Origin: a virus
IMG/VR virus record: IMGVR_UViG_3300042291_002084
Coordinates: 6,168-70,167 of that record
Length of the DNA: 64,000 bases
Direction: 5' to 3' (one strand)
This document shows positions 37,251 to 59,933 of the stretch, one piece after another; positions within the stretch are counted from its first letter, which is position 1, and each line of letters starts with the position of its first letter. The translations under genes and the position numbers were made by a program. A model generated the notes under the pieces. That model worked only from the letters and a program-made list of their open reading frames with translations, made no database searches and was not told the origin of the DNA.

Positions 37251-37916
37251 TTATTTTTTAAAGTTAAATCCAATACCTATTGTTAATGTGTGCATCCATT
37301 TTACTGAACTTACACTTCTAAAGTTAATGTTATCAGATATTGTAAAATTTATTTTTTTATTTTGAAATAGAGATATTTTAGTATTTCCATAGACTATTGC
37401 ATCTTGTATTCTTAATAGATTAGGTTGATAATAATATTCACAAGATATTGAGAATCTAGAATGTAAATAAGTAGATTTTAATCTAACCGAATGTCGTATT
37501 ACCTCCTTATGTGGAAGTTTTACATAATTTGTATTTTGATACAGAGTAGCATAGCTTAGCGAAAAATATTTCCATGATTTACCGAATCCTAGTCCAATTG
37601 AATGATCGCTAGTTATACTTCGGGTTAATGAATAATTAAATACGTGTAAAATAAATGTTTTTCTATAATTAATATTAGTCTTTTGTTGTAATTCATTAGC
37701 TATTATCTTATTACTGTATGAAATAGAGTATGTAGTATTTGTATTAAATTTTAATTTATTTCTACTTATTGTATTATCTCCAGAATATGCTGCATTAATT
37801 TGAGTAGTACTATTTTTTAAATATACTCCAGTAATACTATTTATTGAGGCACCAAAGATTGAGTCTTGTGAATAACTAAATACTGGTATAAAAAAAATAA
37901 GTAGTAATAGTTTCAC
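37251..37916 (-). CDS. Putative outer-membrane beta-barrel protein (DUF481-like)
   Basis: Signal peptide ending YSQ; amphipathic strands; C-terminal LTIGIGFNF. Confidence 0.65.
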   Translation of the reverse strand: MKLLLLIFFIPVFSYSQDSIFGASINSITGVYLKNSTTQINAAYSGDNTISRNKLKFNTNTTYSISYSNKIIANELQQKTNINYRKTFILHVFNYSLTRSITSDHSIGLGFGKSWKYFSLSYATLYQNTNYVKLPHKEVIRHSVRLKSTYLHSRFSISCEYYYQPNLLRIQDAIVYGNTKISLFQNKKINFTISDNINFRSVSSVKWMHTLTIGIGFNFKK

Positions 37917-38099
37917 CTATTCATTTATAATTTTTATTTCTCTATTTGGATTATCTGAGTGTTCCCATAAATCTCTAGTAAGTGTACCAACTACCCAATT
38001 ACACATTTCTTCACTATACGTCTCGCATATCTTAACAAATGGATATTTCTCACCAGTGTCTGGATTGATATCAACAAATCCAATACTATATTTCTCCAT
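37917..38099 (-). CDS. Small hypothetical protein
   Basis: ORF in operon. Confidence 0.65.
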   Translation of the reverse strand: MEKYSIGFVDINPDTGEKYPFVKICETYSEEMCNWVVGTLTRDLWEHSDNPNREIKIINE

Positions 38100-38309
38100 A
38101 AATTAATTTTGTTAGTTGGTATATTGATGGAGCACCAATTTCTCCAAATTCTCTAAATATTTCTAGCATATTCTTTTTATTTTTTTACATTCGCCCGCTT
38201 ATTGTTAGATTCCTAGCCTTTTGACAGTGCTTCTCAATTTCAATTAGCCACTTAACTATTGATATAATACTTACTTTTTTAAGACTGTTCTTGAGCATAG
38301 TTAAAATTT

Positions 38310-38546
38310 TTATTTTATATTTCGAATATCTGATACTTTATTTGAACTGAATGGATAATATCGAATAACATATATTTGATTATTTATCGTATCTTCCACC
38401 ATAACTTCATATCCATCCCTAGCTAATAAACTAGTCGTTGGCTGTATGATGCACTTTGGATATTTTCTTTGCGCATCATTTAATCGATCTATTTGATTAA
38501 CACAACTAGTTAATCCAATTAAGCTAAGTAATAATAATTTTTTCAT
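38310..38546 (-). CDS. Small lipoprotein
   Basis: MKKLLLLSLIGLTSC lipobox. Confidence 0.8.
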   Translation of the reverse strand: MKKLLLLSLIGLTSCVNQIDRLNDAQRKYPKCIIQPTTSLLARDGYEVMVEDTINNQIYVIRYYPFSSNKVSDIRNIK

Positions 38547-38551
38547 AATTT

Positions 38552-39502
38552 TTAATTTGATATTTGTGCTTTAATTATTGGGTGTGATTGATAATCTAAT
38601 ATTTTAAACATATCAATCTCTAATTTATCTAATTCATAATCTAACATATCAGGATGAATGTCTAATTTAGATAACGTAAAAGGTTCTCTTGATCTTTTTG
38701 GTATGTTTCTGGTGACTAATTTAGATTCTAACCATTCGTCATCTTTTACTTCCATACCTGGTGTAAATTCATTCTCGTATAGTTTTTTTCTTTCTTCTTT
38801 AGTAAGTTCTCTGCCAATCTGTTCCGTTGCTTGCTCAACGTGGTTTGAATATAAATGAACATCACCTAAATTACCAATCAATTCATCTGGAACCATATTA
38901 ACAACTTTAGCAATGATTTCCAATAACAATCCGTAAGATGCAATATTGAATGGTAAACCTAAGAATGTATCTACTGAACGTTGATTCCACATAAGCGAGA
39001 TTGCTCTGGTTGGAATATTTAATTCATTCATCCTACTAGCTAATGCTAATTCAAAATCTAAACCAATTGATTCGTATTGTTCTTTATTAGATAGAGCTTT
39101 ATTATACTCATCATCACTTTTGTTAACAAAAAATAATCGTTCTTTAACACTCAATTCTCTTGTATACATTTGAAACCCATAATGACACGGTGGAAGAACC
39201 ATTGAATCCAATTCTCCAACATTCCAAGCATTTACCATCAAACGTCTTGAATCTGGATTTGTTTTAAGGTCTTGAATTAGTTTTTCTATTTGGTCACATT
39301 TTGGAATATCTTTAAAATGTGTTACAGCACCATGATGCCAACCAGATGGAACTTGTTGAACACCACACCATGCTCTCCATTGCTTACCATATACTGGACC
39401 GAGTTCTCCGAATTTATCACTAAACGCTTTGTCATTTTTTATTTTTTCTATAAATTGTTCTTTAGAAAAAGGTGTGCCGTCTTCATTGATGTATTCTTTC
39501 AT
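38552..39502 (-). CDS. thyA: Thymidylate synthase, C-terminal polypeptide
   Basis: [20 protein letters not shown] (catalytic Cys), [26 protein letters not shown]. Confidence 0.93.
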
Positions 39503-40128
39503 TCTTCTAATTTTTTAAGTTTTCGTATTTCCCAAGCTTTCTTTAAAGACTCGGATGCTTTTCGATTATGTTCTTCACTATTGATTTTACCCTTTCTACC
39601 AGAAACTTTTCCTTTTCGATCTTCGCTCATTTTCTTTATAGTTTCTTCTGAATGTTTAAATCCAGTAAGAGTATTTTTGATTTTTTCTCTGGTTTCAAGA
39701 GAATGATTTTTCGCATAGAAACCATTTTTTTCACCAATACGTTCTTTGGCTTTTTTGGACATTTTATTCTTTGCATCTTCCGAATGTTTCTTATTATAGT
39801 TAGGGTTATTTACACCTTTAACTGATTCAGAATATTCCAATCTTATCATTTCATATAATTTAGAATTTGGAATATATCTCTGTTGGTTTTTATCTTTTAC
39901 ATTTAACATCATCCAAAGAGCTAACCTCAATCCTTTATGATTAGGGTATATTCTACATAAAAGTAAATGAGCTATAAAATGTTCTCTTGCAGTTAAAACT
40001 ACTAGATTCTCGATATCTTCACTTCCATTTAAACATCGCGGTATAATATGATGCCTTTCTGTATATCCTTCAATTTTTCTTGTTTTTGCTCTTTCGATTA
40101 ATTGAAGATAAATCTTATTATAATCCAT
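39499..40128 (-). mobile_element. MobE-like HNH homing endonuclease with NUMOD3 repeats, inserted in thyA
   Basis: MDYNKIYLQLIERA…ERHHIIPRCLNGSEDIENLVVLTAREHFIAHLLL; KHSEETIKKMS-type repeats. Confidence 0.9.
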
Positions 40129-40435
40129 TATTTTCTTTCCATTTTTCATACTCTTTTAAGTATGCGTTATAAGCATCTCCATCCCAAATGTGACAATCAT
40201 TGTCTACAAGGAATTTAATGTTTGTATCACCACGTAAGAACCAGATTAATTCGGTTGCTATAAGTCGGAACGGCATTCGTTTTGTCGTGAGCAATGGAAA
40301 CCCATCTTTCATATTGTGACGGATCTGTCTACCATATACTGAAATCGTTCCTGTTCCTGTGCGGTCACCTTTCTGATGTCCATTATCAAGTATGTCTTGA
40401 AGAAGTACTTGATAGTCTTTGTCTAATTTATTCAT
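40118..40435 (-). CDS. thyA: Thymidylate synthase, N-terminal polypeptide
   Basis: DRTGTGT, GFPLLTTK, ELIWFLRGDTNI, IWD; stops after 105 aa. Confidence 0.93.
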   Translation of the reverse strand: MNKLDKDYQVLLQDILDNGHQKGDRTGTGTISVYGRQIRHNMKDGFPLLTTKRMPFRLIATELIWFLRGDTNIKFLVDNDCHIWDGDAYNAYLKEYEKWKENNGL

Positions 40436-40692
40436 ACAAATTTTACATTAAGGTTCGTTCTTAGTTTATTTGCTAAAAATTCAAGATTATCTTTAATGAT
40501 TGGATTATCTTTAAATGCTTTTCCAATTACTAGTAAAGTTCTCATGATTCCATTATCATCGGTATTTAGATGATTATTTAAATAATTGTTAAACTCATTT
40601 AGTTTTTCATCTAGTCGCCGATCTCCTTTAAAAATTTCTCTACAATCGTTGTGTATTTTTTCATACTTCAACATATTTTCTGTTTTATCCAT
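40432..40692 (-). CDS. Hypothetical protein
   Basis: ORF overlapping thyA start (ATGA). Confidence 0.65.
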   Translation of the reverse strand: MDKTENMLKYEKIHNDCREIFKGDRRLDEKLNEFNNYLNNHLNTDDNGIMRTLLVIGKAFKDNPIIKDNLEFLANKLRTNLNVKFV

Positions 40693-40695
40693 GCT

Positions 40696-41112
40696 TTATA
40701 TTTTTAACTTTCTTTTCATTCGTCTTATTTCTAGATTTAGCTTATCTCTCTCTTCTATTGCGATCGAAAGCCTCATAGCTAATGGAAGACCATATAATTT
40801 AAGGTCTTTAAATCTAGAATCAATTTGAGTAAATTTTTGTTTAAACTCCTTATCTACATCACAAATATCGCTTACTTTAGTACGATAATAGATAATACTT
40901 GAATGATCTAATCCGCCGGTCACTGAACCAATTTCATTAAGTGTATATAATGAATTTCTTCGCAAAGCCTCACATAGCATCATACGAGCATCTGTAACCT
41001 TTCGTAATCTGCTTCCATTATTGATTTGTTCTTTAGTTATACCAGTAACTTCAGTAACTATTCCAAATAATAGAGAAGCATCTTGAACAAGTGATTTATC
41101 TAAGCCTTTCAT
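40696..41112 (-). CDS. DnaA domain-IV-like HTH protein
   Basis: SR.R.V..AR.M..…TL.EIG…GGLDHSSII matches Bac_DnaA_C pattern. Confidence 0.8.
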   Translation of the reverse strand: MKGLDKSLVQDASLLFGIVTEVTGITKEQINNGSRLRKVTDARMMLCEALRRNSLYTLNEIGSVTGGLDHSSIIYYRTKVSDICDVDKEFKQKFTQIDSRFKDLKLYGLPLAMRLSIAIEERDKLNLEIRRMKRKLKI

Positions 41113-41121
41113 AGAGAATAA

Positions 41122-41361
41122 TTATTGGATTATTTCATATTTACCACAAATGATTTTATTCGACCCTTCATATTCAAACATAATACACTCACCACTAACA
41201 CTAGTCGTATATGAACGAACGATAAATTCTTCACTATTAGTTTTAATAACTATATCTGAATGCTTAGATCTAGTGAGTGAGTAGATTGAAATTATCCCAA
41301 TCATAATTATTATTATATACATTATGATTCCATCATCAATTGAGCGATTAAATATTTTCAT
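41122..41361 (-). CDS. Small membrane-anchored protein
   Basis: N-terminal hydrophobic helix. Confidence 0.6.
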   Translation of the reverse strand: MKIFNRSIDDGIIMYIIIIMIGIISIYSLTRSKHSDIVIKTNSEEFIVRSYTTSVSGECIMFEYEGSNKIICGKYEIIQ

Positions 41362-41367
41362 TAGTTT

Positions 41368-41559
41368 TTAATTAGAAGGTTTAACTGAGTATGCATCGAA
41401 TTCTTCACTAAAATAAAAAACAAAAATTTCATTATGATTAAATTCTTCAATTGAAATATCCATTGATTTACAATATCTCTGTATTGCATCTTCATTTGAA
41501 ATATTTAAATAACATTTCATCATTCCTAGAGCGCCAATTGAAATTAATTTATTTTCCAT
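41368..41559 (-). CDS. Small hypothetical protein
   Basis: ORF in operon. Confidence 0.6.
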   Translation of the reverse strand: MENKLISIGALGMMKCYLNISNEDAIQRYCKSMDISIEEFNHNEIFVFYFSEEFDAYSVKPSN

Positions 41560-45783: not shown

Positions 45784-47088
45784 TTATATACTTCGTTTTT
45801 TACCATAGTTTCCTTTAAATACTGGAAACCTTAATGAATTATTTCCATGTTGATCAGTTGTTTCTTCAAAGTACTGGACACAAATTACTGAATCAAGTAT
45901 ATCTGATTGATTTGAATAATAATGCCTACGTTGATCAATAGTAAATCCACTTCCTACTTGAACCGGTGAACCTTTGTGATTAACAATAACTGCACTCAAC
46001 ATATCTTCTTCAATTTCCTTTCCATCTACTATTACTCTTTGTGGGCCCATTATTAAACTAGCAACAGTATATTCTGCATCAAAAAATTCTTTAATTTTAA
46101 GCATGTGTTTAGATCTACCTGGAGAATATTGAGTATCTCTTCTTGCAATTAGCCCTTCCCAATTAGAATCTTTAGATTGACTCTTTAATTCTTCAAGAGC
46201 ATCTTCATCTTTAATTCTTATTTGAGGAAGTATTTCTAAGATAGATGATGATTTTAAATCACCTAACCATTGTGCTCTAGTTTCAATACGGGTAGAAAAT
46301 AGTGGTGATTCATCTGTTCCTGCAAACTCGCCAGCTTGTAAGATATCAAAGATTTGATATCTTGGGTTTTCGATAGTATGGTCTTTACGTTGTATTTGCT
46401 TTAGGATTCCCTGGAAGTCATCTGAGCTATCTGCATTCATAAGACATAGTTCACCATCTAAAACAGAATCAGTGATCCCTAATCGTCTTATTTCCTCTGC
46501 TACTTTTCCAAGAGTTAAAAATTCTTTACCGTTTCTTGAAAAGAATCGTACTTCATCTCCATGAATAAAACAGATACATCGAACTCCATCTAATTTTCTA
46601 GACACAAACCAGGTTCCATCAAAAATATTTACACCTTTTACTTTTGATGCATCATGTGCAAGGGCAACTTCAAAGGTTGGTATAAATTTAGGAATTACCC
46701 TATTAATAATTGTAGTAGTTGCGCGAGTTTCAAGGTTTCTATCAATTACTTGATATATTAGGTCAGTCCATTCTTCATAATCTTTAATAAACCGATTCAT
46801 TGCTTCAATTGCAGAGTGGCCAGTTATATGCCTCTCATTAAAATCATTAAGCATCATAAAAAGATCATCATATACTTCATTTGATGAAATTAAGTCACTA
46901 CGCTTTTTAAGATTAGTAGAAGTTAATCCAAAATTCCAATATGGATGATATGTATAGAATAGGATCTTTTTAATAAAGGGATGATACTGATACTTAGTAA
47001 GAACGTCAACTTTATGATTAGTTGAGTTTGATGAATTCATCTCATTGACAAATTCGCGAAGTAATTTAAAATCATCAGAGTGACGCAT
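45784..47088 (-). CDS. ATP-dependent DNA ligase
   Basis: SRKLDGVR, LDGEL, IFDIL, WEGLIAR, LKIK, VGSGF, SLRFPVF. Confidence 0.95.
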   Translation of the reverse strand: MRHSDDFKLLREFVNEMNSSNSTNHKVDVLTKYQYHPFIKKILFYTYHPYWNFGLTSTNLKKRSDLISSNEVYDDLFMMLNDFNERHITGHSAIEAMNRFIKDYEEWTDLIYQVIDRNLETRATTTIINRVIPKFIPTFEVALAHDASKVKGVNIFDGTWFVSRKLDGVRCICFIHGDEVRFFSRNGKEFLTLGKVAEEIRRLGITDSVLDGELCLMNADSSDDFQGILKQIQRKDHTIENPRYQIFDILQAGEFAGTDESPLFSTRIETRAQWLGDLKSSSILEILPQIRIKDEDALEELKSQSKDSNWEGLIARRDTQYSPGRSKHMLKIKEFFDAEYTVASLIMGPQRVIVDGKEIEEDMLSAVIVNHKGSPVQVGSGFTIDQRRHYYSNQSDILDSVICVQYFEETTDQHGNNSLRFPVFKGNYGKKRSI

Positions 47089-48833: not shown

Positions 48834-50252
48834 TTAAGCAATAGTAAAGTTTTTTTCTATTGTTTCAGCTTTTGCAATCTCATTACTTGGAGCAGATGAA
48901 CCGCCAGCATTAACCCTAACACAGGCTTCAATAGCAGACTTTTTATTAGTAAATGAATTAGGATCAATATTTAGATTCTTTAATCCGTTTATTATAAATG
49001 CAGCAGCTACTCGAGCAGAAAATTTAGGGTCATTTAATTTATCAGGATCAGTAACAATATCAATTCCAGTTAAATCTGAATATCTTTGGTAATTTGATTT
49101 AAATGTTAATTGATTAAAACCTCTACCTCGATATTTATAACCATCGCCTACTTTAGTATTACCAGTATTCCAACCTAAATTGTCAGTTGCAGTCGGACCA
49201 TATACCTTATCGAAAAATGCAGATGGGCTAGATTTAAGTTTAGTTAAAGCATCATCAGATAAGTCACTCACTCTAGATCCAAATAGACCTCGAATTCGCG
49301 CATTTGGGGTAGTTGCATAACTTAATTCGTTTTGTGGAATAAAATTACTCTCTTTTCCAATAGTTGATAATATCCCAATAATAGCATACTTATTAGTTAC
49401 ACCAAGAGATTTAATTTGACTAATTAGGGTATTAATATTTTGAGCTTGGGTACCAGTATAATTGGATTTTATTTCTTTATCTTCTAGTGCATCATCAATA
49501 AGTTCATCCGAATCTTCACTAGATAGGTCAGACGTACCTACTTGATTTCCAGAATCGTCTAATCCAAATTTATCTTTAAACCATATAAAATGTTCTGGAT
49601 GTTCAGCAAAGATATTATCTAATTCTTCTGGAGTAAGAGTAGGAGCCATATCTGGCATCATTCTAAAAAGCCAATCTAAGATTACTTGATTATTTAATAT
49701 TCTTTCCCCTCGGGTTTTTCCTGGAGAGCTTTGATATTCATCTTTTAAATCATTTGAATCATCTGAATCGCGACCAACTCGACGTACACCTATATGAATA
49801 TGATCAAAGTGATCGGGTACTCGCCATCCAACTTGATATCGATATCCGCCAGAATTGAAATTAAACCATGAACCTCCTTTATATTCTGGATGACCACACC
49901 ATTGCATTAAATGCGCAAGTAGAGTATCTCCACTCTTTCCACTAGTTGCAATATCAATAGCATATGAATCATCTTGACCTTCATAGTGATCTGAGGTATT
50001 TCCGCTTGCAGTTTTTTCCTTAGATCTCTTTTGAGAAATAATAGTATTTTTTCCAACAAAATCATTAGCAATTTTAGCAAAAGCTAATGCTCTAGGCATA
50101 CTTCCATCCCAGTCTCCACCCTTTCCGCCAACATTTGCTTTACCGCTATCTAATGAGCCAACGGTTAATCCAAATGTTTTATCTGGATAGTTTGCATCAG
50201 GATCAAATGAAAATGTCTCGTTAAGTTTAACCCAATCTTTAAAAGTAATCAT
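48834..50252 (-). CDS. Tagged two-domain cell-wall hydrolase (M15-like peptidase + GH19 lysozyme)
   Basis: SDHYEG…AIDI…HFDHIH; KESNF…GDGYKYRGRGFNQLTFKSNY…PD.L. Confidence 0.8.
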   Translation of the reverse strand: MITFKDWVKLNETFSFDPDANYPDKTFGLTVGSLDSGKANVGGKGGDWDGSMPRALAFAKIANDFVGKNTIISQKRSKEKTASGNTSDHYEGQDDSYAIDIATSGKSGDTLLAHLMQWCGHPEYKGGSWFNFNSGGYRYQVGWRVPDHFDHIHIGVRRVGRDSDDSNDLKDEYQSSPGKTRGERILNNQVILDWLFRMMPDMAPTLTPEELDNIFAEHPEHFIWFKDKFGLDDSGNQVGTSDLSSEDSDELIDDALEDKEIKSNYTGTQAQNINTLISQIKSLGVTNKYAIIGILSTIGKESNFIPQNELSYATTPNARIRGLFGSRVSDLSDDALTKLKSSPSAFFDKVYGPTATDNLGWNTGNTKVGDGYKYRGRGFNQLTFKSNYQRYSDLTGIDIVTDPDKLNDPKFSARVAAAFIINGLKNLNIDPNSFTNKKSAIEACVRVNAGGSSAPSNEIAKAETIEKNFTIA

Positions 50253-51645: not shown

Positions 51646-53487
51646 TTATTTAAACTGGGAGAAACGGCTACTTGCGCTTGGAGTAAACGACTTAGCCTCA
51701 GTTTCTTGATCAGCAGTTATTTTTTGTATATCTTTATCTAAATTATCAGCAACTTCATGATCAACTACATCACCTTCTCCTCCTCTAGTAACTTCGCCAC
51801 GACCGATTGCATCAAAGAATTCGTCAAACTCATTATCTACTTTATCTTTATCGTAGTTATCCATTACTACTCTCATAATCGCTGGTTCACCATGTAATCT
51901 AGCAAAGTGATTTTGATAATCTAATACTCTATCGTATGTTTCTTTATCTCTAGAATCAAGTTCAACATATGGCACGTATACTGCACCAGTCTCCTCTCTT
52001 TTCTTTTTAATTTGTTTATCAACCCAATCATTATAGCCTCCATTTCCATGGCCTTCAACTTCTTTTTTAGTCCATTCGCCAGGCTTACCAGTCCATGGTT
52101 TACCGTGAATAATCTTCCAAATTTGTTTTCCTATAAAGAATGGGAGACTTGCCATTGCTGCTTTTGGAAATTTAGGTAAAGTCTTGGTTGTCCATGAAAC
52201 GAGTCGGGCACGTATTCCAGGATGAGTTGCAATATTTCCGATTCCTTTTTGATATGCTGCAAATTCAGCAGCTGTAGTAAATAGTTTATCTGCGCCAGCG
52301 GCTCCGCCATATCGTACCTCTTTTATTCCAGATTTAACAAAGGACTCAGAAGGTATGCGCCCTATCATTTTTCCCTCTTTACTATATGCATATAATAATT
52401 TACCATCATCACTTAATTTAAAAGTACTACCGACTTTTGCAGCATTATCCATTTTTTCAATAGCTTCTTTTGCAAGTCGAGTATCTAATAATTTAAATGA
52501 GTCACAAAAAGTGGTCATTTTTGTTCCAAAATTAGTAAGAGATTTTCCTAAGAACTCAAAGATCGGACGAAGCATTAATCCTAGTCCTGGAATATAATCT
52601 GTAACTTTAGCAAAGTTTTGGATAAATTTACCAAGCAGGGTTGTGCCCGATCCAATAGCTCCACCGATTAGTGATACTATCTTTCTAAGTAATCGTATAA
52701 CCATACCAGATTCCTTTGTACTTAGTCGAGAAACAGCAACTGCTGCTTCATCAACTTGACCGGCAGATAATTTAACTAGTATTGGACTCGCAGAGTGCGC
52801 ACCCCATTTTAAAGGTTTTAACATATCACCGCCGCCAATTACTAAAGCAGCAATAAGTGATATTGTACCCAACATATATTTTTTACGAACAAAATATATT
52901 ATTGCGTTTATTAAATCTGCAACAACGCCTACTCCTGGAAAAATAAAATCTCCGACTACTCCAATAATATCAATAACAAATTGAAGTATTCCAATAGGGG
53001 ATCCATTTTCTGTACATGCAAGGTATAACTTTTTAAGAACTGACCAGAACCCACTATTTGTTCGGGCAGTATGTGGTCCACCAGTAAAAGCAGTAGTTAA
53101 ATCAGCTGGGGTAAATGCATCTGATCCTGGAGCAAGAGACATATCTGACTCTGCTAAAAATAGTCCTTTTAAATAATCCTTAAATGTATCGATTGACTCA
53201 GTTATTTCTTGGGAATCTGGAAATATTTTACGAGCAGATTCTAGAATAGAATTTGTTCCAGTTGTCATTCCTCGATAATAATCTGAAATTGCATTTTTTC
53301 CTTGATCTAAGATCATTGAAAGATGCAGGTCAAATAAGGCTGACTCTGAAATACTTGATTCAATTGAATTAATAAACATTGACTCATTAATAATTGAATC
53401 AACAGTAAGTCGATTACTTGAGTTTAATACTTTATTTAAACTATTAAATTGTTCAATTTGACTTTCATTTATTACGAAATCTGACAT
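51646..53487 (-). CDS. Virion/ejection-type protein with hydrophobic PT-TG-like segment
   Basis: Multiple xxES sites; LQFVIDIIGVVGDFIFPGVGVVADLINAIIY…ISLIAAL. Confidence 0.65.
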   Translation of the reverse strand: MSDFVINESQIEQFNSLNKVLNSSNRLTVDSIINESMFINSIESSISESALFDLHLSMILDQGKNAISDYYRGMTTGTNSILESARKIFPDSQEITESIDTFKDYLKGLFLAESDMSLAPGSDAFTPADLTTAFTGGPHTARTNSGFWSVLKKLYLACTENGSPIGILQFVIDIIGVVGDFIFPGVGVVADLINAIIYFVRKKYMLGTISLIAALVIGGGDMLKPLKWGAHSASPILVKLSAGQVDEAAVAVSRLSTKESGMVIRLLRKIVSLIGGAIGSGTTLLGKFIQNFAKVTDYIPGLGLMLRPIFEFLGKSLTNFGTKMTTFCDSFKLLDTRLAKEAIEKMDNAAKVGSTFKLSDDGKLLYAYSKEGKMIGRIPSESFVKSGIKEVRYGGAAGADKLFTTAAEFAAYQKGIGNIATHPGIRARLVSWTTKTLPKFPKAAMASLPFFIGKQIWKIIHGKPWTGKPGEWTKKEVEGHGNGGYNDWVDKQIKKKREETGAVYVPYVELDSRDKETYDRVLDYQNHFARLHGEPAIMRVVMDNYDKDKVDNEFDEFFDAIGRGEVTRGGEGDVVDHEVADNLDKDIQKITADQETEAKSFTPSASSRFSQFK

Positions 53488-55972: not shown

Positions 55973-56260
55973 TTATACATTTAAATCTCGAGTAGTCGGC
56001 AGCTTTTTGCTTGTCTTCTTTACTTTATGTTTTTTAGTTAGTTCCATTTTTTCAAGACTTGACTCTTTAAATCTTTCATTTTTAAATCCAATCATAACTA
56101 GATAAGAGGATCCTTCGATTGCAGTTATCTTGCCAATTCGATCTTTGACTTTTACTGATTCGCCAATTTTAAATTTTTGAGTATTCTTGATAAATGGATC
56201 GAGCGACTCTTTTAGGGAGCCGCTCATAAAATCCTGATATGATAAAATTAAAGATTTCAT
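55973..56260 (-). CDS. Tagged SH3/KOW-like small protein
   Basis: ILSYQDF…LKES; FKIGESVKV…GKI. Confidence 0.7.
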   Translation of the reverse strand: MKSLILSYQDFMSGSLKESLDPFIKNTQKFKIGESVKVKDRIGKITAIEGSSYLVMIGFKNERFKESSLEKMELTKKHKVKKTSKKLPTTRDLNV

Positions 56261-57861
56261 TTAATATCTTTTTTAAATAGGTCTAAACCTACATAATCTT
56301 GTTTAAGGACAGTAAGAGTAGATTCAATAGATTCTCTAATGCCTGTTAATTTTTTAACAGCATCTGAATCAAGGTCTGGACTAGAAATAGCAGCTTGCAA
56401 TTTTTCCATTGTTTGTTCTAATTTAGTAATATCTACTGAAATTGAAGATTTCTTTTCTTCTATTTTCTTATATGCGTCTTTCTTCTCATCAATTTTAGTT
56501 TTGAAGATAGGGCTAATATCATAATTGAATTTAGTCATACAAAACTCATATAATGCATGTTCATCAACTTTTTTCCAATTACGTTCTACTGTGTTTATCT
56601 TGTCGCAAATATAAAACTCTTCATTCAATTTTAAAATAGTTGCTTCAGCAAGAGTTCGGTCATTTGATAATTCTTTAATAAAATCAAGATTAAACAAGTT
56701 TTTAGAATTTTCAAATAGAGTAATTACTCTTTCTTTAATTGAAGTATTTTCCAATACTAATGCTTCCATTAAATTAATATCTTCAATATTTAAAACTTTT
56801 GATTCATTTAAATAAAGATCTAATTCACGATTTTCATTTGTTTTAAAACCAATATTGAAATTTCTAATTGAATTTGATTCAACACCAGTTCCATCAATAT
56901 TTTTCTTAAATCCTAGTGTTGCAAAAGATTCAGATACTTTATAGAATTTAGGAAACTTTTCTTTTACGTAAGCTGGATCAATTTCAGCGATTTTAAATGT
57001 TCCATCAATATAAACACTTGTCTCTTTTCCAGTAAGCCCCTTAGATTCGCGTATAGATACAAATCTATCATCCATATAAACAATTAAACCGTCTTTTGCT
57101 TTAGTTGCTGGAGTAATTAAATTAGTAACTTGCGTAAATGAATCGCCTTCACCTAATGTAAAATATCCAGTAGTTTGTGATTCTACAATACGTAGATCTG
57201 AAATTAGCTGGTTTATTACAGGGACAGTATTTCCATATTTAAGTTTAAGAATATCTGAAGTATAAGATTCGTTAATTAACATCTTTTTAAGATCTTCACT
57301 AACTTCATTATAATTTTGACTAGGCATTGAATCTAGTGAATACACTGCATTCAATAGAAGGATAACTGAACGATTTTCATTTAAGTAACGTTCAGTGTTT
57401 TTTACTTGTGTTGCAATTACTGTATCATAATTATGAGAAGCAAATGCATTAATAAAACTTTCACATAATACAAAGTCTAAAATCCCTTCATTTAAGTAGT
57501 TTTCAAAAACTTCAACTTGAGAAGAAATTACAGGATTACTCCAAGATTTAGATTCTTTAATTGCATTTAATTTTTCTAATAAATTTGCTTTTTTAGCAAT
57601 TGAATAAGTTAAAACAGTATCAGTATTTTCAATTTTTTCAAATTGAGATACAATTGATTCTAATACTGGACTAGCAACATTTGATTTAATTGCAGCAATT
57701 CCATTTTTTAGATTAGAATAGATGCTATCTTGCGATTCGCCTAATACGATTGACTTATCAATTGACTCAGTTAACAGTTTAACCAATGGCTGTGAATTAA
57801 TTGCAGTATTGCTTTTAAGTTCATTTAATATTTTATCTACGAAGCCTTTCATTTCGTGCAT
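56257..57861 (-). CDS. Putative head core/structural protein
   Basis: Late box; many (L/I)xES sites; C-terminal coiled coil. Confidence 0.7.
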   Translation of the reverse strand: MHEMKGFVDKILNELKSNTAINSQPLVKLLTESIDKSIVLGESQDSIYSNLKNGIAAIKSNVASPVLESIVSQFEKIENTDTVLTYSIAKKANLLEKLNAIKESKSWSNPVISSQVEVFENYLNEGILDFVLCESFINAFASHNYDTVIATQVKNTERYLNENRSVILLLNAVYSLDSMPSQNYNEVSEDLKKMLINESYTSDILKLKYGNTVPVINQLISDLRIVESQTTGYFTLGEGDSFTQVTNLITPATKAKDGLIVYMDDRFVSIRESKGLTGKETSVYIDGTFKIAEIDPAYVKEKFPKFYKVSESFATLGFKKNIDGTGVESNSIRNFNIGFKTNENRELDLYLNESKVLNIEDINLMEALVLENTSIKERVITLFENSKNLFNLDFIKELSNDRTLAEATILKLNEEFYICDKINTVERNWKKVDEHALYEFCMTKFNYDISPIFKTKIDEKKDAYKKIEEKKSSISVDITKLEQTMEKLQAAISSPDLDSDAVKKLTGIRESIESTLTVLKQDYVGLDLFKKDIK

Positions 57862-57917: not shown

Positions 57918-59933
57918 TTACTCGTATGTACTACGTGTATTTCGAAGATCGGTTCTGATCGATATTGCATCAGCTACTCCAAATCTATTTACTAATGGAG
58001 CAACTCCAATATCTTTAATACGAGTATCTGCTTCAGAAAATTTACTAGTTACATCCCAACGCTCAATAGTATTTAATTTAGTTCGAATGTCTTCAAAGAT
58101 TAATGCTGTGCTTTTTTGAGAAGTTGCTCGAGCTTTAGCTTCAACTATTGCTAAATCAACATCTGCTTGTTCACTCGGCTTTCTCCATTCTCCAGTATAC
58201 ATTAAAGTCTCTCGACCATCTTGAGCAACTGACGTTAGATAAACTGTCCGATTTGCTGAAGTAACAACGGATTCACTATCTTTTTTAGAGATATTAAATG
58301 TAATCCTGCCAGTTGATAAATTTTCAAGATTTGAATCATTTACGTTATCTACTGATATTTTACCAGAGTCAGTTTCAAAAACCAAACGGTATTTTGCAGA
58401 ATTTACATTTAGATCTAATGGAACTAGTGGATTAGATCCATTTGATAATGAAGAGTCAGTAAATACTTTTATTTTTAGAATATTGTCAAATGGCGATAAT
58501 ACAAATCTCCATTTACCTGGACTAAAAATTACCTCTTCTGTAGAATCATGAACAGTCACGCCAGATTCAATTTTAGATATTGAAATATTATTATTTGTAA
58601 AAAATATTGGTATATATTCAGTACGGACAACTTCTGTAACAATAGGAGCAGATAGTATATCCTGTTGAGTAATAACTCGTGGCCGACCTACTGCTGGTGG
58701 TTCAATGAATAATTTAGTAGCCTCAAAATTATTTTTTACAATCTTATTATAAATTTTTTGAGATTGTGGTTTATCTAATAGTGGAATATTCGTTAATTCC
58801 TTTCCATATTTTTTTGGAGAAATTAAACTAAATGAACCTTCTCGAATAATTTGTTCACCATTTCGCCTATTTGTTAATCTTGCAATATAATCAATTGACA
58901 TACTAATTGCTTCATTCGCGTTTTTTAATACTGGTCGAAATACATTAGGCTCGTCATATGAATCTTCTTGAAAAAATATAAGTCTCGAAGTATTAATAAA
59001 GGCAGAGCCTACTTGTTCAAATACACTTAACTGATGAACTATAATCCAGTCATCTGCTGGGTTTCTACGATTTAACATAGACAATAATTCTCCAGGAAAT
59101 CCAGAATTAAAAGTTAAGTAAAATTCTAAGTAATCGCCAACGATTGATTCATTAATTTGGGCGCCTACATTATCAAATTCATTACTTTGTGAAAGTGTTG
59201 CAGCATATGAATTAGATGCTTCATATGAGTCATAACTAGTTAAAGTATTCGTATATATTGTATTCTTCTTACCACATTCTAATAGAGTAATAGTAATAGG
59301 ATTATTATAAATAAAACCTACTGGTGATGATGGAAGATCTGGGGTTATTGCAGCAGCAAAGGTTAATGTTGGATTTGGAGCAGTAACAAAATCTTCATTT
59401 ATATTTTTTATAGATGGTACTAGGATATCAATATACCTGTCATATAGTGAATTAGAAAGAAATAATGGTTTAGGGTTAAATGTTATAAGTTGAGAAATTG
59501 TTTCTGGTGCAAGTAAAATATTTGCAAAAGTATTAACAACTCCATTATTTTCTTTATTTGTAATTGAAAGAATAACAGCTTTAAATGTATCAAAGTCAAA
59601 TCCTGAAACAAAGTGAAATCGTACTTTGTCCATTACCACATTATATCCAGATAGTGTACTACTTACTAAGTTAGTATTATATTGTAAATAATCCGGAATT
59701 TTTTCACTATCTAGGTATGCATATTGATTATTTTCTAATGCAACTACTGATATATCTTGAATATTTTTAGTAGTTAAATACGAACTATCTTTGTTAAAGA
59801 TTTGGTGTCCGCCAATAACATTATTTTCTAAAAATATAAAATCATCTGTATAGAAATTAAGTGAACCGAGCGGTTCAAATTGATATTCAACTACACAGTA
59901 TTGAGTTAAGCTAATAAATCTACTTTGAGCCAT
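57918..59933 (-). CDS. 671-aa beta-rich structural protein
   Basis: Long ORF in structural operon. Confidence 0.8.
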   Translation of the reverse strand: MAQSRFISLTQYCVVEYQFEPLGSLNFYTDDFIFLENNVIGGHQIFNKDSSYLTTKNIQDISVVALENNQYAYLDSEKIPDYLQYNTNLVSSTLSGYNVVMDKVRFHFVSGFDFDTFKAVILSITNKENNGVVNTFANILLAPETISQLITFNPKPLFLSNSLYDRYIDILVPSIKNINEDFVTAPNPTLTFAAAITPDLPSSPVGFIYNNPITITLLECGKKNTIYTNTLTSYDSYEASNSYAATLSQSNEFDNVGAQINESIVGDYLEFYLTFNSGFPGELLSMLNRRNPADDWIIVHQLSVFEQVGSAFINTSRLIFFQEDSYDEPNVFRPVLKNANEAISMSIDYIARLTNRRNGEQIIREGSFSLISPKKYGKELTNIPLLDKPQSQKIYNKIVKNNFEATKLFIEPPAVGRPRVITQQDILSAPIVTEVVRTEYIPIFFTNNNISISKIESGVTVHDSTEEVIFSPGKWRFVLSPFDNILKIKVFTDSSLSNGSNPLVPLDLNVNSAKYRLVFETDSGKISVDNVNDSNLENLSTGRITFNISKKDSESVVTSANRTVYLTSVAQDGRETLMYTGEWRKPSEQADVDLAIVEAKARATSQKSTALIFEDIRTKLNTIERWDVTSKFSEADTRIKDIGVAPLVNRFGVADAISIRTDLRNTRSTYE

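What the first reader, a model, noticed from the sequence alone, without database searches (positions are those of the whole stretch)
38552..40435. Thymidylate synthase split into two genes by an intron-less MobE-like homing endonuclease
Seen: ThyA-N (105 aa) stops at 40118. The HNH/NUMOD3 ORF starts at 40128, overlapping that stop region, and its TGA overlaps the ATG of ThyA-C (ATGA, 39499-39502). There is no non-coding space for a group I intron core and the ORFs are in different frames, so it is not an intein. All catalytic motifs are intact. The break falls in the variable insertion after IWD, and KEY appears on both sides (YLKEYE / MKEYIN). Known: T4 td carries a self-splicing intron, whereas phage Aeh1 nrdA is split by mobE into two polypeptides that reassemble. 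Inference: a naturally split, translationally coupled two-chain ThyA; ribosomal bypassing between the KEY codons is a less likely alternative.
Basis: partly seen in the sequence, partly recalled or inferred. Interest (0 to 1): 0.78.

Follow-up and report, generated by a model that had tools for sequence, protein, structure and literature searches.

The report
Endonuclease-split phage thymidylate synthase gene
An uncultured lake phage encodes its thymidylate synthase as two separate genes with a selfish DNA-cutting-enzyme gene between them, apparently with no RNA or protein splicing, so the two pieces most likely just reassemble.

Summary
On the minus strand lie ThyA-N (40435-40118, 105 aa), an HNH+NUMOD3 endonuclease gene (40128-39499) and ThyA-C (39502-38552, 316 aa), joined by 11-nt and 4-nt (ATGA) overlaps.

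- **Identity:** each half alone passes the thymidylate-synthase equivalog cut-off, and together they tile the profile at 2-92 and 92-end. The endonuclease is 47% identical to T4 MobE.
- **No splicing signal:** no group I intron was found; the same scan finds the T4 td intron. There is no room for a split intein.
- **Relatives:** they are mostly unsplit (79 of 80 loci). The same break point recurs in many metagenomic phages, with three unrelated endonuclease types or with none.
- **Mobility:** a 90%-related cassette has near-identical flanks in a diverged thyA, the mark of homing with co-conversion.
- **Function:** both halves look constrained. A complex model passes its controls.

Most likely this is a two-chain enzyme, a new member of the Aeh1 nrdA/mobE "genes-in-pieces" kind. 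I found no report in print. The scan has noted it before on other DNA. Activity is untested.

The parts
40118..40435 (-). thyA-N: N-terminal 105 aa of thymidylate synthase, with its own TAA stop
   Evidence: ORF. PF00303 positions 1-82, E 7e-30. TIGR03284 127.6 bits, profile 2-92. Aligns to solved TS 3uwl residues 3-92.
40121..40174 (-). C-terminal tail of ThyA-N (residues 88-105, AYNAYLKEYEKWKENNGL): first helix segment of the small domain, ending at the break
   Evidence: A tail of this type ends 24 of the 26 short N-fragments fetched. It is 100% identical to L097 over 40154-40050. It is in the predicted N/C interface.
40118..40128 (-). 11-nt overlap of the thyA-N end with the endonuclease start
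   Evidence: Sequence. Met at 40128 is invariant in 15 of 15 homologues.
39499..40128 (-). Free-standing HNH + NUMOD3 homing endonuclease gene (209 aa), MobE-like, in a different frame from thyA
   Evidence: NUMOD3 64.4 bits, HNH 20.7 bits. phrog_655 'homing endonuclease', E 1.7e-52. 47% identity over 126 aa to T4 MobE, E 6e-32. H26 H27 N41 H50 H54 invariant.
39499..39502 (-). ATGA: endonuclease stop overlapping the thyA-C start
   Evidence: Sequence.
38552..39502 (-). thyA-C: C-terminal 316 aa of thymidylate synthase, with its own ATG. It carries the DSRR, PPCH, NQRSVD, LPFN and DVHLY motifs and the IKA...N end
   Evidence: PF00303, E 1.8e-55. TIGR03284 175.5 bits, from profile position 92. 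Aligns to 3uwl from residue 122. Motif residues are invariant in 30 sequences.
39410..39502 (-). N-terminal head of ThyA-C (residues 1-31, up to GELGP): second helix segment of the small domain
   Evidence: Shared by other C-fragments that start at the same point. About 97-100% identical to L097. In the predicted interface. Copied at a second break site in other phages.
40050..40170 (-). Upstream near-identical tract shared with metagenome locus L097 (candidate co-conversion tract)
   Evidence: Sliding identity 0.97-1.00 here against 0.50-0.90 (mostly 0.73-0.83) over the rest of thyA-N. The DNA upstream of thyA is unrelated.
39390..39810 (-). Downstream near-identical tract shared with L097 (3' part of the endonuclease gene plus the first ~37 codons of thyA-C)
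   Evidence: Sliding identity 0.90-1.00, then 0.33-0.50 in the next loop.
40432..40692 (-). Upstream 86-aa ORF whose TGA overlaps the thyA-N ATG (ATGA): the region is one tightly packed operon
   Evidence: ORF list and sequence. No terminator-like site in 37800-41400.

Best explanation
The phage's thymidylate synthase gene exists as two cistrons, thyA-N (105 aa) and thyA-C (316 aa). They are separated by a free-standing MobE-like HNH/NUMOD3 homing endonuclease gene. The break lies in the surface 'small domain' segment that long thymidylate synthases have and the 264-aa E. coli type lacks.

The three genes are read from one transcript as three separate proteins; the overlapping stop/start codons suggest coupled translation. 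No RNA or protein splicing takes place. ThyA-N and ThyA-C fold together non-covalently into one ThyA protomer, and two such protomers would form the usual dimer, (N.C)2. The active site is built from both pieces.

The endonuclease is a selfish passenger. It cuts thyA alleles that lack it and is copied in by repair, together with the adjoining thyA sequence. That sequence includes the stop codon, the start codon and the two tail segments, so homing spreads the split state itself.

Shown: the gene anatomy, the family memberships, the absence of a detectable intron or intein, intact relatives, recurrence of the break, the mosaic identity pattern, and conservation of both halves. Inferred: expression as separate proteins, assembly, enzyme activity and endonuclease activity.
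For: **Anatomy**
- ORFs and overlaps are as described.
- The halves tile the thymidylate-synthase profile without loss: TIGR03284 positions 2-92 and 92 onward, each above the cut-off; PF00303 positions 1-82 and 82 onward.
- The tail plus head between the IWDGD and GELGP anchors is 18+31 = 49 aa. The intact 423-aa ThyA of Flavobacterium phage immuto has 51 aa there.

**No intron**
- No RF00028 hit at E<=10 in 37500-41500. The same kind of scan finds the T4 td intron at 40.3 bits, E 2.9e-8.
- RNA fold z-score is -0.99.

**Endonuclease**
- phrog_655, 47% identity to T4 MobE, HNH residues invariant.

**Presence/absence among relatives**
- 79 of the 80 IMG/VR loci most like ThyA-C have one continuous ORF; 1 is split at the same point.
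- 96 of the 120 listed N-fragment hits are 96-125 aa long, 27 of them on contigs of 10 kb or more.
- 24 of the 26 short ones fetched end with the same tail type.
- Of 29 loci found with a tail pattern, 22 are interrupted: 14 by a NUMOD1-type ORF, 4 by a 323-aa-type endonuclease (one of them frameshifted), and 4 with no gene between N and C but still split by an ATGA overlap.

**Mobility**
- L097 carries a 90%-identical endonuclease in a thyA whose body is only about 75-85% identical and whose upstream neighbour is unrelated. Its flanks are 97-100% identical.

**Constraint**
- Catalytic motifs are invariant in 26 N-sequences and 30 C/full-length sequences.
- Window against L097 for N: dN 0.086, dS 1.36, ratio 0.063.
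- The window copy departs from >=95%-conserved columns at 2 of 51 (N) and 2 of 103 (C), within the range of the other members.

**Assembly**
- Complex model ipSAE 0.88 (three runs, 0.88-0.89) against 0.00 for the best of 3 controls. That mark was reached by 58 of 80 solved complexes and 2 of 110 mismatched pairs.
- The runs share at least 98% of their contacts, and the partner's pLDDT is at least 91. Both tails are in the interface.
- Because ThyA structures are solved, this pass may be from memory; it shows likeness to an intact ThyA fold.

**RNA-library contigs**
- Contigs of relatives carry the unspliced junctions. X7 record 19 (39488-40210) and X8 record 30 (39954-40241) bridge N/HNH. X4 record 14 (39374-39945) and X8 record 29 (39382-39646) bridge HNH/C.
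Against: - No direct evidence of expression, assembly or activity.
- The RNA-library contigs may stem from DNA in those libraries, and contigs cannot show transcripts or rule out a rare spliced form.
- The complex model is expected to pass for halves of a family with solved structures.
- dS is saturated in most comparisons. Six of 11 N-fragment comparisons gave no estimate, and the C-fragment ratios of 0.22-0.44 include variable loops.
- Pfam HNH is just below its cut-off (20.7 against 21.4 bits).
- Only about 28% of the phage genome is in the record, so a second thymidylate synthase elsewhere cannot be excluded. None (ThyA or ThyX) was found in the 70 kb held.
- In the set closest to ThyA-C the split is rare (1 of 80).
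- Several of the 29 pattern loci are probably the same phage sampled more than once (L130/L133/L144, L138/L143, L147/L152), so the counts are not independent events.
Confidence: 0.8

Rival explanations
1. Same two-chain enzyme, different history. The break is older than this HNH gene. thyA was already in two cistrons, and the junction, now an intergenic site inside an essential function, serves as a landing site that different homing endonucleases colonise, replace and lose. On this reading the HNH did not split the gene in this lineage.
For: The same break point, with homologous tail and head sequences, carries three unrelated endonuclease types and in 4 loci no gene at all (N stop overlapping C start, ATGA). 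One endonuclease copy is frameshifted while both thyA halves stay intact (L148). The review PMC2988022 (passages read) raises the same possibility for split gene 43 of Aeromonas phages 25 and 44RR.
Against: The near-identical flanks shared with L097 show that the stop/start-bearing junction travels with the HNH gene. So in any given genome the split could equally have arrived with the endonuclease. Empty junctions can also arise by clean loss of the endonuclease. The order of events was not tested with a rooted tree.
Confidence: 0.4
2. The gene is dead. The endonuclease insertion inactivated thyA, the two ORFs are decaying remnants, and the phage relies on the host enzyme or on another phage gene.
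For: No activity data. Only ~28% of the genome is in hand. Thymidylate synthase is dispensable for some phages (recalled, not tested).
Against: Both ORFs are full length, with all family-invariant motifs. Deviations from conserved columns are normal (2 of 51 and 2 of 103). N dN/dS against L097 is 0.063. The split form persists across diverged phages, including after loss or decay of the endonuclease. The halves retain precise stop/start overlaps.
Confidence: 0.07
3. A single ThyA chain is restored by splicing: either a cryptic self-splicing intron that overlaps the endonuclease ORF, or protein trans-splicing by split-intein halves at the new ends ('fractured gene' type).
For: T4 td and other thyA genes do carry group I introns (annotation). 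Fractured genes with an endonuclease between split-intein halves exist (PMC2677866; search listing and start of the abstract only). The two thyA halves are in the same frame.
Against: No intron model hit at E<=10, while the control is found. There is no non-coding base between the three ORFs. No unusual RNA structure. HEG-less relatives have N and C abutting with a 4-nt overlap and a frame change, which leaves nothing to splice. No intein or Hint family was reported in either half at E<=0.01. The tail and head together (49 aa) only match the 51 aa of the intact relative, which leaves no room for intein halves.
Confidence: 0.03
4. Ribosomes bypass the insert from the first KEY to the second (T4 gene 60-like hopping).
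For: K-E-Y occurs on both sides and N and C share a frame. A mobile-element origin of the gene 60 bypass is reported (bioRxiv 10.1101/2022.08.31.505936; search listing only).
Against: The Tyr codons differ (TAT and TAC). The codon after the first is GAA, not a stop. The distance is about 650 nt against 50 nt in gene 60 (the gene 60 features are recalled). The gap is itself a conserved, translated ORF. ThyA-C has its own ATG, conserved in other C-fragments.
Confidence: 0.01

Closest known systems
nrdA-a / mobE / nrdA-b of Aeromonas phage Aeh1 ('genes in pieces' ribonucleotide reductase). Crona et al. 2011, PMC3045599 (abstract read); review PMC2988022 (passages read); Friedrich et al. 2007 recalled, not seen.
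   Same: A free-standing HNH (Mob-type) endonuclease gene sits inside an essential nucleotide-metabolism gene that is contiguous in relatives. It yields two polypeptides that must reassemble without RNA or protein splicing, and the sequences at the new ends are linked to the insertion.
   Different: The host gene is thymidylate synthase, not nrdA. The break lies in a variable surface segment rather than, as described for mobE and mobA, a functionally critical region. The tails here are mostly native small-domain sequence. The same break point is shared by many phages, with several endonuclease families and with empty junctions. Activity is untested here, whereas the Aeh1 enzyme was shown to be active.
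T4 td group I intron with I-TevI (and thyA introns of Bacillus with I-BmoI)
   Same: The same host enzyme family is targeted by a homing endonuclease (listing for I-BmoI).
   Different: There the endonuclease rides in a self-splicing intron and one polypeptide is made. Here there is no intron core, the site is different, the endonuclease is HNH rather than GIY-YIG, and there are two polypeptides.
T4 gene 39/60 split by mobA, and split gene 43 of Aeromonas phages 25 and 44RR (PMC2988022, passages read)
   Same: Essential phage genes divided into separate cistrons at a site occupied by a free-standing endonuclease. For gene 43 there is the same doubt over whether the endonuclease made the split or invaded an existing one.
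   Different: Different enzymes. No bypass element here. Population-wide turnover of endonucleases at one break point is documented here by metagenomic loci.
Fractured genes with split inteins (Dassa et al. 2009, PMC2677866; listing and start of the abstract only)
   Same: A gene in two pieces with a homing endonuclease gene between them, found in environmental sequence.
   Different: No intein halves here, so no protein ligation is expected.

Membership tests
Thymidylate synthase ThyA (PF00303 / TIGR03284) | Profile match above the curated cut-off | tested here: met
   PF00303: 104.5 and 188.4 bits against a cut-off of 24.3. TIGR03284: 127.6 and 175.5 bits against 108.35. The two halves tile profile positions 2-92 and 92 onward.
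Thymidylate synthase ThyA (PF00303 / TIGR03284) | Catalytic and substrate-binding motifs: DRTGTG Arg, ELxWF Glu, IWD Trp, DSRR Arg pair, PPCH Cys, NQRSxD, LPFN Asn (Asn rather than Asp, i.e. dUMP type), DxHxY, C-terminal IKA. The roles of these residues are recalled from E. coli/L. casei TS, not from a call. | tested here: met
   All are present in the window halves. They are invariant in the alignment of 26 N-fragments and in the alignment of 30 C-fragment or full-length sequences.
Thymidylate synthase ThyA (PF00303 / TIGR03284) | One polypeptide per protomer | tested here: not met
   Two cistrons with their own stop and start. This is the point of the finding.
Thymidylate synthase ThyA (PF00303 / TIGR03284) | dUMP to dTMP activity | not testable with these tools
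   Needs complementation or an enzyme assay.
Free-standing HNH homing endonuclease, T4 Mob type (MobE-like) | HNH nuclease motif and similarity to MobE | tested here: met
   47% identity over 126 aa to T4 MobE, E 6e-32. H26 H27 N41 H50 H54 are invariant in 15 sequences. phrog_655, E 1.7e-52. Pfam HNH alone is 0.7 bit under its cut-off.
Free-standing HNH homing endonuclease, T4 Mob type (MobE-like) | DNA-binding NUMOD-type modules | tested here: met
   NUMOD3 64.4 bits, two stretches.
Free-standing HNH homing endonuclease, T4 Mob type (MobE-like) | Not inside an intron or intein | tested here: met
   No RF00028 hit at E<=10, with a positive control. The gene is in a different frame from thyA and has its own start and stop.
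Free-standing HNH homing endonuclease, T4 Mob type (MobE-like) | Sporadic presence among related genomes, with co-converted flanks | tested here: met
   79 of 80 related loci lack any insert at this site. L097 shares 97-100% identical flanks in an otherwise ~75-85% identical thyA-N.
Free-standing HNH homing endonuclease, T4 Mob type (MobE-like) | Site-specific cleavage of endonuclease-less alleles | not testable with these tools
   Needs purified protein and an unsplit thyA target.
Genes-in-pieces by endonuclease insertion (Aeh1 nrdA/mobE type) | Host gene contiguous in relatives; endonuclease gene exactly between two intact halves | tested here: met
   intact relatives; anatomy.
Genes-in-pieces by endonuclease insertion (Aeh1 nrdA/mobE type) | Halves reassemble into an active enzyme; tails needed for assembly | not testable with these tools
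   Only a model: ipSAE 0.88 against 0.00 for the best control, with both tails in the interface. This may reflect memory of solved ThyA structures.
Group I intron (T4 td type) | Catalytic RNA core and non-coding intron sequence | tested here: not met
   No hit at E<=10. The control T4 td intron scores 40.3 bits. There are zero non-coding bases between the ORFs. Fold z-score -0.99.
Split intein / fractured gene | Intein N- and C-halves at the new protein ends | tested here: not met
   No intein or Hint family at E<=0.01. Tail plus head is 49 aa against 51 aa in the intact homologue.
Programmed translational bypass (T4 gene 60 type) | Matched take-off and landing codons, a stop after take-off, a short (~50 nt) gap (features recalled) | tested here: not met
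   TAT against TAC, next codon GAA, a gap of about 650 nt that is a conserved ORF.

The most novel reading that the evidence does not exclude
The endonuclease does not travel alone. It moves as a 'fission cassette' made of a ThyA tail with a stop codon, the endonuclease gene, and a start codon with a ThyA head. The two flanking helical segments act as a portable clasp that holds the severed protein together.

This window would hold the original (native small-domain) version of that clasp. In other phages a related HNH gene sits at a second break, after the GxxWR motif. There it is flanked by a second copy of the same head ([16 protein letters not shown]...) and by a YLKK-type tail, so those ThyA proteins carry the helix twice.

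If true, this is a general third way, besides introns and inteins, for a selfish endonuclease to invade the middle of an essential gene without killing it. It would also explain where such 'reassembly tails' come from.
Probability: 0.35. Interest if true: 0.75.

Novelty: new member of a known kind. Interest (0 to 1): 0.55.

Why it matters
Thymidylate synthase is the textbook host of a phage self-splicing intron (T4 td). Here the same enzyme family tolerates a homing endonuclease with no splicing at all, by being made as two chains. This happens in many wild phages, not in a single isolate.

That makes thyA a natural, population-scale system for studying three things: how selfish endonucleases invade essential genes, how the cost is neutralised, and how endonucleases replace each other at one site.

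Practically, it marks a permissive split point in ThyA, a widely used selection marker. It also warns annotators that ~105-aa and ~316-aa 'partial thymidylate synthases' in phage contigs are probably functional halves, not pseudogenes.

Tried and rejected
- **The look-up of encoding contigs was closed.** I could not fetch the contigs of the C-fragments P0032, P0047, P0051, P0111 or of the HNH homologues. That some N-fragments, HNH homologues and C-fragments lie on the same contigs is suggested only by equal contig lengths (171179; 12096; 1901; 4735; 1933; 2280). This is indirect.
- **Rfam on related loci.** An E-value scan of five loci (L041, L138, L155, L130, L073; 47,941 bases) gave no hit at E<=0.1. 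My guess that the I-TevI-like insert in L138 is a td-like intron is therefore unconfirmed.
- **Regulatory signals.** Promoter-like sites were at chance level (20 found against 22.4 expected) and there were no terminator-like sites in 37800-41400. No internal regulatory signal can be claimed.
- **RNA fold of the insert** was not unusual (z -0.99).
- **dN/dS.** Six of 11 N-fragment comparisons gave no estimate because dS is saturated. The C-fragment ratios (0.22-0.44) are rough.
- **The commonest insert in other phages.** I read it by eye as GIY-YIG-like. Neither Pfam nor PHROGs confirmed a GIY-YIG domain. Only NUMOD1 was found: 18 bits for the L073 copy, below the cut-off, and 29.7 bits for the L155 copy, above it. 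I therefore call it a NUMOD1-type endonuclease-like ORF.
- **Read laying.** No joint that skips the endonuclease was listed in the three RNA-library runs or the DNA run. These are contigs, which drop rare variants, so this is not evidence of absence. Parts without cover are not interpreted.
- **Run search.** Two lake-water metagenome runs hold 0.87 and 0.84 of the sampled words and may include the source sample. Small-share rows were not used for habitat.
- **Other copies and genes.** ThyX was not found in the 70-kb record, but the record is about 28% complete. No second copy of any of the endonuclease types was found in the window. Eight of 10 large window ORFs had no PHROG hit, so the phage type stays unresolved.
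- **Literature.** Searches found no report of a naturally split thymidylate synthase. Subscription-only papers are not covered, and supplements were closed and not consulted.
Full report
**Observation.** On the minus strand the ORF list and sequence show three genes:
- thyA-N: ATG 40435 to TAA 40120-40118, 105 aa.
- An HNH/NUMOD3 ORF: ATG 40128 (an upstream in-frame ATG lies at 40149) to TGA 39501-39499.
- thyA-C: ATG 39502 to TAA 38554-38552, 316 aa.

The endonuclease start overlaps the thyA-N end by 11 nt, and its stop overlaps the thyA-C start as ATGA. Translating the whole stretch in the thyA-N frame shows that N and C share one frame, with starts 933 nt apart. The 615 nt between them are full of stops in that frame, and the endonuclease uses another frame. 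The only correction is that the two thyA halves are in frame with each other.

**What the parts are.**
- Pfam places thyA-N on PF00303 positions 1-82 and thyA-C on 82 onward.
- The NCBIfam equivalog TIGR03284 (cut-off 108.35 bits) gives 127.6 bits for N (profile 2-92) and 175.5 bits for C (from 92). Nothing of the family profile is lost at the break.
- Against solved structures, N aligns to residues 3-92 and C to residues 122 onward of the 315-aa enzyme 3uwl. The 264-aa E. coli-type chains align straight across. The break therefore lies in the extra small-domain segment of the long enzymes.
- The middle ORF has NUMOD3 (64.4 bits) and a near-threshold HNH match. It hits phrog_655 'homing endonuclease' at E 1.7e-52 and is 47% identical over 126 aa to T4 MobE (E 6e-32).
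- In an alignment with 14 homologues the Met at 40128 and the residues H26, H27, N41, H50 and H54 are invariant. Most close homologues are 205-209 aa long, which fixes the start at 40128.

**Splicing and bypass.**
- An E-value scan of 37500-41500 against all Rfam families found no group I intron at E<=10. The same kind of scan on the T4 td region finds RF00028 at 40.3 bits, E 2.9e-8.
- There is no non-coding base between the three ORFs. The insert RNA folds no better than shuffles (z -0.99).
- No intein-type family appears in either half. The ThyA-N tail after IWDGD (18 aa) plus the ThyA-C head before GELGP (31 aa) add up to 49 aa. The uninterrupted 423-aa ThyA of Flavobacterium phage immuto has 51 aa between the same anchors. 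That leaves no room for split-intein halves.
- The K-E-Y repeat uses different Tyr codons, is not followed by a stop, and spans about 650 nt of a conserved ORF. Bypassing is not credible.

**Relatives.**
- The nearest named genomes, the Flavobacterium immuto phages, have one continuous thyA with the same three lineage-specific insertions.
- Of the 80 IMG/VR loci most similar to ThyA-C, 79 have a single ORF from the N start to the C end. One (L073) is split at the same point by a 232-aa ORF.
- The split is nevertheless common. A search with ThyA-N, restricted to proteins of 57-184 aa, returned 3764 hits. Of the 120 listed, 96 are 96-125 aa long, 27 of them on contigs of at least 10 kb, up to 390 kb.
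- Of the 26 short N-fragments I fetched, 24 end in the same tail type as the window, around AYL-K/R-E-Y/C-E-K.
- Several ThyA-C relatives of 305-326 aa start at the same point as the window's C half.
- A DNA pattern for the tail found 29 IMG/VR loci. Of these, 22 are interrupted, 2 are continuous and 5 are cut by contig ends.
- Of the 22 interrupted loci, 14 carry a NUMOD1-type ORF. Four carry a 323-aa endonuclease of another family (phrog_3339/DUF7487), and one of those (L148) is frameshifted while both thyA halves stay intact. Four (L129, L138, L139, L143) have no gene at the junction, yet N and C remain separate cistrons with an ATGA overlap.
- Some of these loci are probably the same phage sampled repeatedly, so they are not 22 independent events.

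**Mobility.** A metagenome contig (L097) carries a 90%-identical HNH gene between thyA halves. Aligned with the window and scanned in 30-nt windows:
- the DNA upstream of thyA is unrelated;
- the body of thyA-N is mostly about 75-85% identical;
- 40154-40050 is 100% identical and 39810-39390 is 90-100% identical;
- the next thyA-C loop drops to 33-50%.

With about 20% divergence next door, a 105-nt tract without a single change is far beyond chance (my estimate: 0.8^105, about 7e-11). This is the pattern expected when a homing endonuclease gene is copied into a new genome together with its flanks. Here the flanks include the thyA-N stop, the thyA-C start and both end segments.

**Function of the halves.**
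- The motifs that define the family are invariant in 26 N-fragments and in 30 C-fragments or full-length proteins.
- The window's own copies differ from >=95%-conserved columns at 2 of 51 and 2 of 103 positions, no more than other members.
- For thyA-N against L097, dN is 0.086, dS 1.36 and the ratio 0.063. Most other comparisons are saturated.
- A complex prediction of C plus N, each with its alignment, scored ipSAE 0.88 in three runs against 0.00 for the best of three controls. The runs share at least 98% of contacts, the partner's pLDDT is at least 91, and the tail of N and the head of C are both in the interface. That mark was reached by 58 of 80 solved complexes and 2 of 110 mismatched pairs. 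Because intact ThyA structures are solved, this pass may be from memory; it shows that the halves fit an ordinary ThyA fold.
- Contigs from three RNA libraries carry relatives of the unspliced N/HNH and HNH/C junctions. They cannot prove transcription.

**Mechanism.** Most likely (0.8) the three genes are translated from one message into three proteins. ThyA-N and ThyA-C associate non-covalently into a ThyA protomer, and this dimerises as usual. The active site draws on both chains: the DRTGTG Arg, the ELxWF Glu and the IWD Trp come from N, and the Cys, the Arg pair, the Asn and the His/Tyr come from C (residue roles recalled). The HNH enzyme promotes its own spread by cutting thyA alleles that lack it. 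Anatomy, family membership, recurrence, mosaicism and constraint are shown. Expression, assembly and both enzyme activities are inferred. Whether this HNH created the break, or arrived at or brought in an older break, is open (rival 1, 0.4).

**Comparison and novelty.**
- The closest known case is the mobE-split nrdA of Aeromonas phage Aeh1, whose tails are needed for assembly (PMC3045599, abstract). Next come T4 gene 39/60 with mobA and the split gene 43 of Aeromonas phages (PMC2988022, passages).
- The present case is the same kind of thing in a new host gene, one otherwise famous for its intron. Unusually rich natural variation comes with it: three endonuclease families and empty junctions at one break point.
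- It also extends to a second break after the GxxWR motif, and to three-piece genes (L155).
- At that second break the C piece starts with a second copy of the window-type head. This suggests that endonuclease and end segments can move as one unit (novel case, 0.35).
- Full-text searches found no report of a naturally split thymidylate synthase. Papers that mentioned the terms did not describe one (passages read).
- Within this scan the same arrangement has been noted before on other DNA: 130 notes in at least 116 genomes hold the search words, and several follow-ups reached the same reading, including the clasp idea. I reached my reading before seeing them (statement). My partly test their claim that the second-site ends derive from an older break.

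**Caveats.**
- There is no experimental evidence of any kind.
- The record is about 28% of a genome.
- The phage is otherwise poorly annotated.
- Counts of loci include probable duplicates.
- Supplementary files of papers were not available.

Noticed in passing
L041 2747-4633 (+), also L043: A single 628-aa thyA ORF with an in-frame insert of about 260 aa after the GELGEIYGAGWRRW motif. The insert hits phrog_2081 'HNH endonuclease' (E 4e-47) and has no Pfam hit. It looks like an endonuclease-like module embedded in frame, with no intron hit in Rfam.
   Followed up: partly
L155 8336-11638 (-): thyA in three pieces. The order is N (109 aa), a NUMOD1-type ORF (237 aa), a 65-aa middle piece that ends after GYGWRNW plus a YLKK-type tail, a 249-aa HNH gene, two small ORFs, then a 246-aa C piece. 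The head of the C piece repeats the helix already present in the middle piece.
   Followed up: partly
L138 2205-4421 (+); also L143, L139: N and the next thyA piece abut with an ATGA overlap and no endonuclease. Further on, an I-TevI-like gene (GIY-YIG + I-TevI zinc finger + NUMOD3) interrupts thyA at QRSV|DTFLG. The downstream similarity starts (about 3975) before any start codon, which suggests a td-like intron. Rfam gave no hit at E<=0.1.
   Followed up: partly
L148 8319-9290 (-): The 323-aa-type endonuclease at the thyA junction is broken into 266-aa and 56-aa ORFs while both thyA halves remain intact. This looks like a decaying endonuclease in a persisting split gene.
   Followed up: no
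P0169, P0185, P0239 (proteins); P0033: A second class of thyA fragments: 164-171 aa N pieces that end after G-x-G-W-R-N-W plus a KLYEDYLKKVK-type tail, and C pieces that go from the head directly to IDQI. In these forms the usual GKQWR reads G[A/Y/H]GWR.
   Followed up: partly
window 38552-40435 and L001 4009-5280: This phage ThyA lineage is about 420 aa long against 264-316 aa in solved enzymes. It has three extra segments: after IWD, between FQ.Y and ISLMWNQRS, and between EQIGR and REP. The intact immuto enzyme shares them.
   Followed up: no
window 39840-40035: Within the otherwise near-identical HNH cassette shared with L097, the nuclease-domain part is only 60-90% identical. This suggests a further recombination breakpoint inside the endonuclease gene.
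   Followed up: no
window, large ORFs (e.g. 51646-53487, 56257-57861, 57918-59933, 17179-19752): Eight of 10 large ORFs tested have no PHROG hit. Only a DNA ligase (45784-47088) and an endolysin-like domain (48834-50252) were recognised. The phage is very divergent.
   Followed up: no
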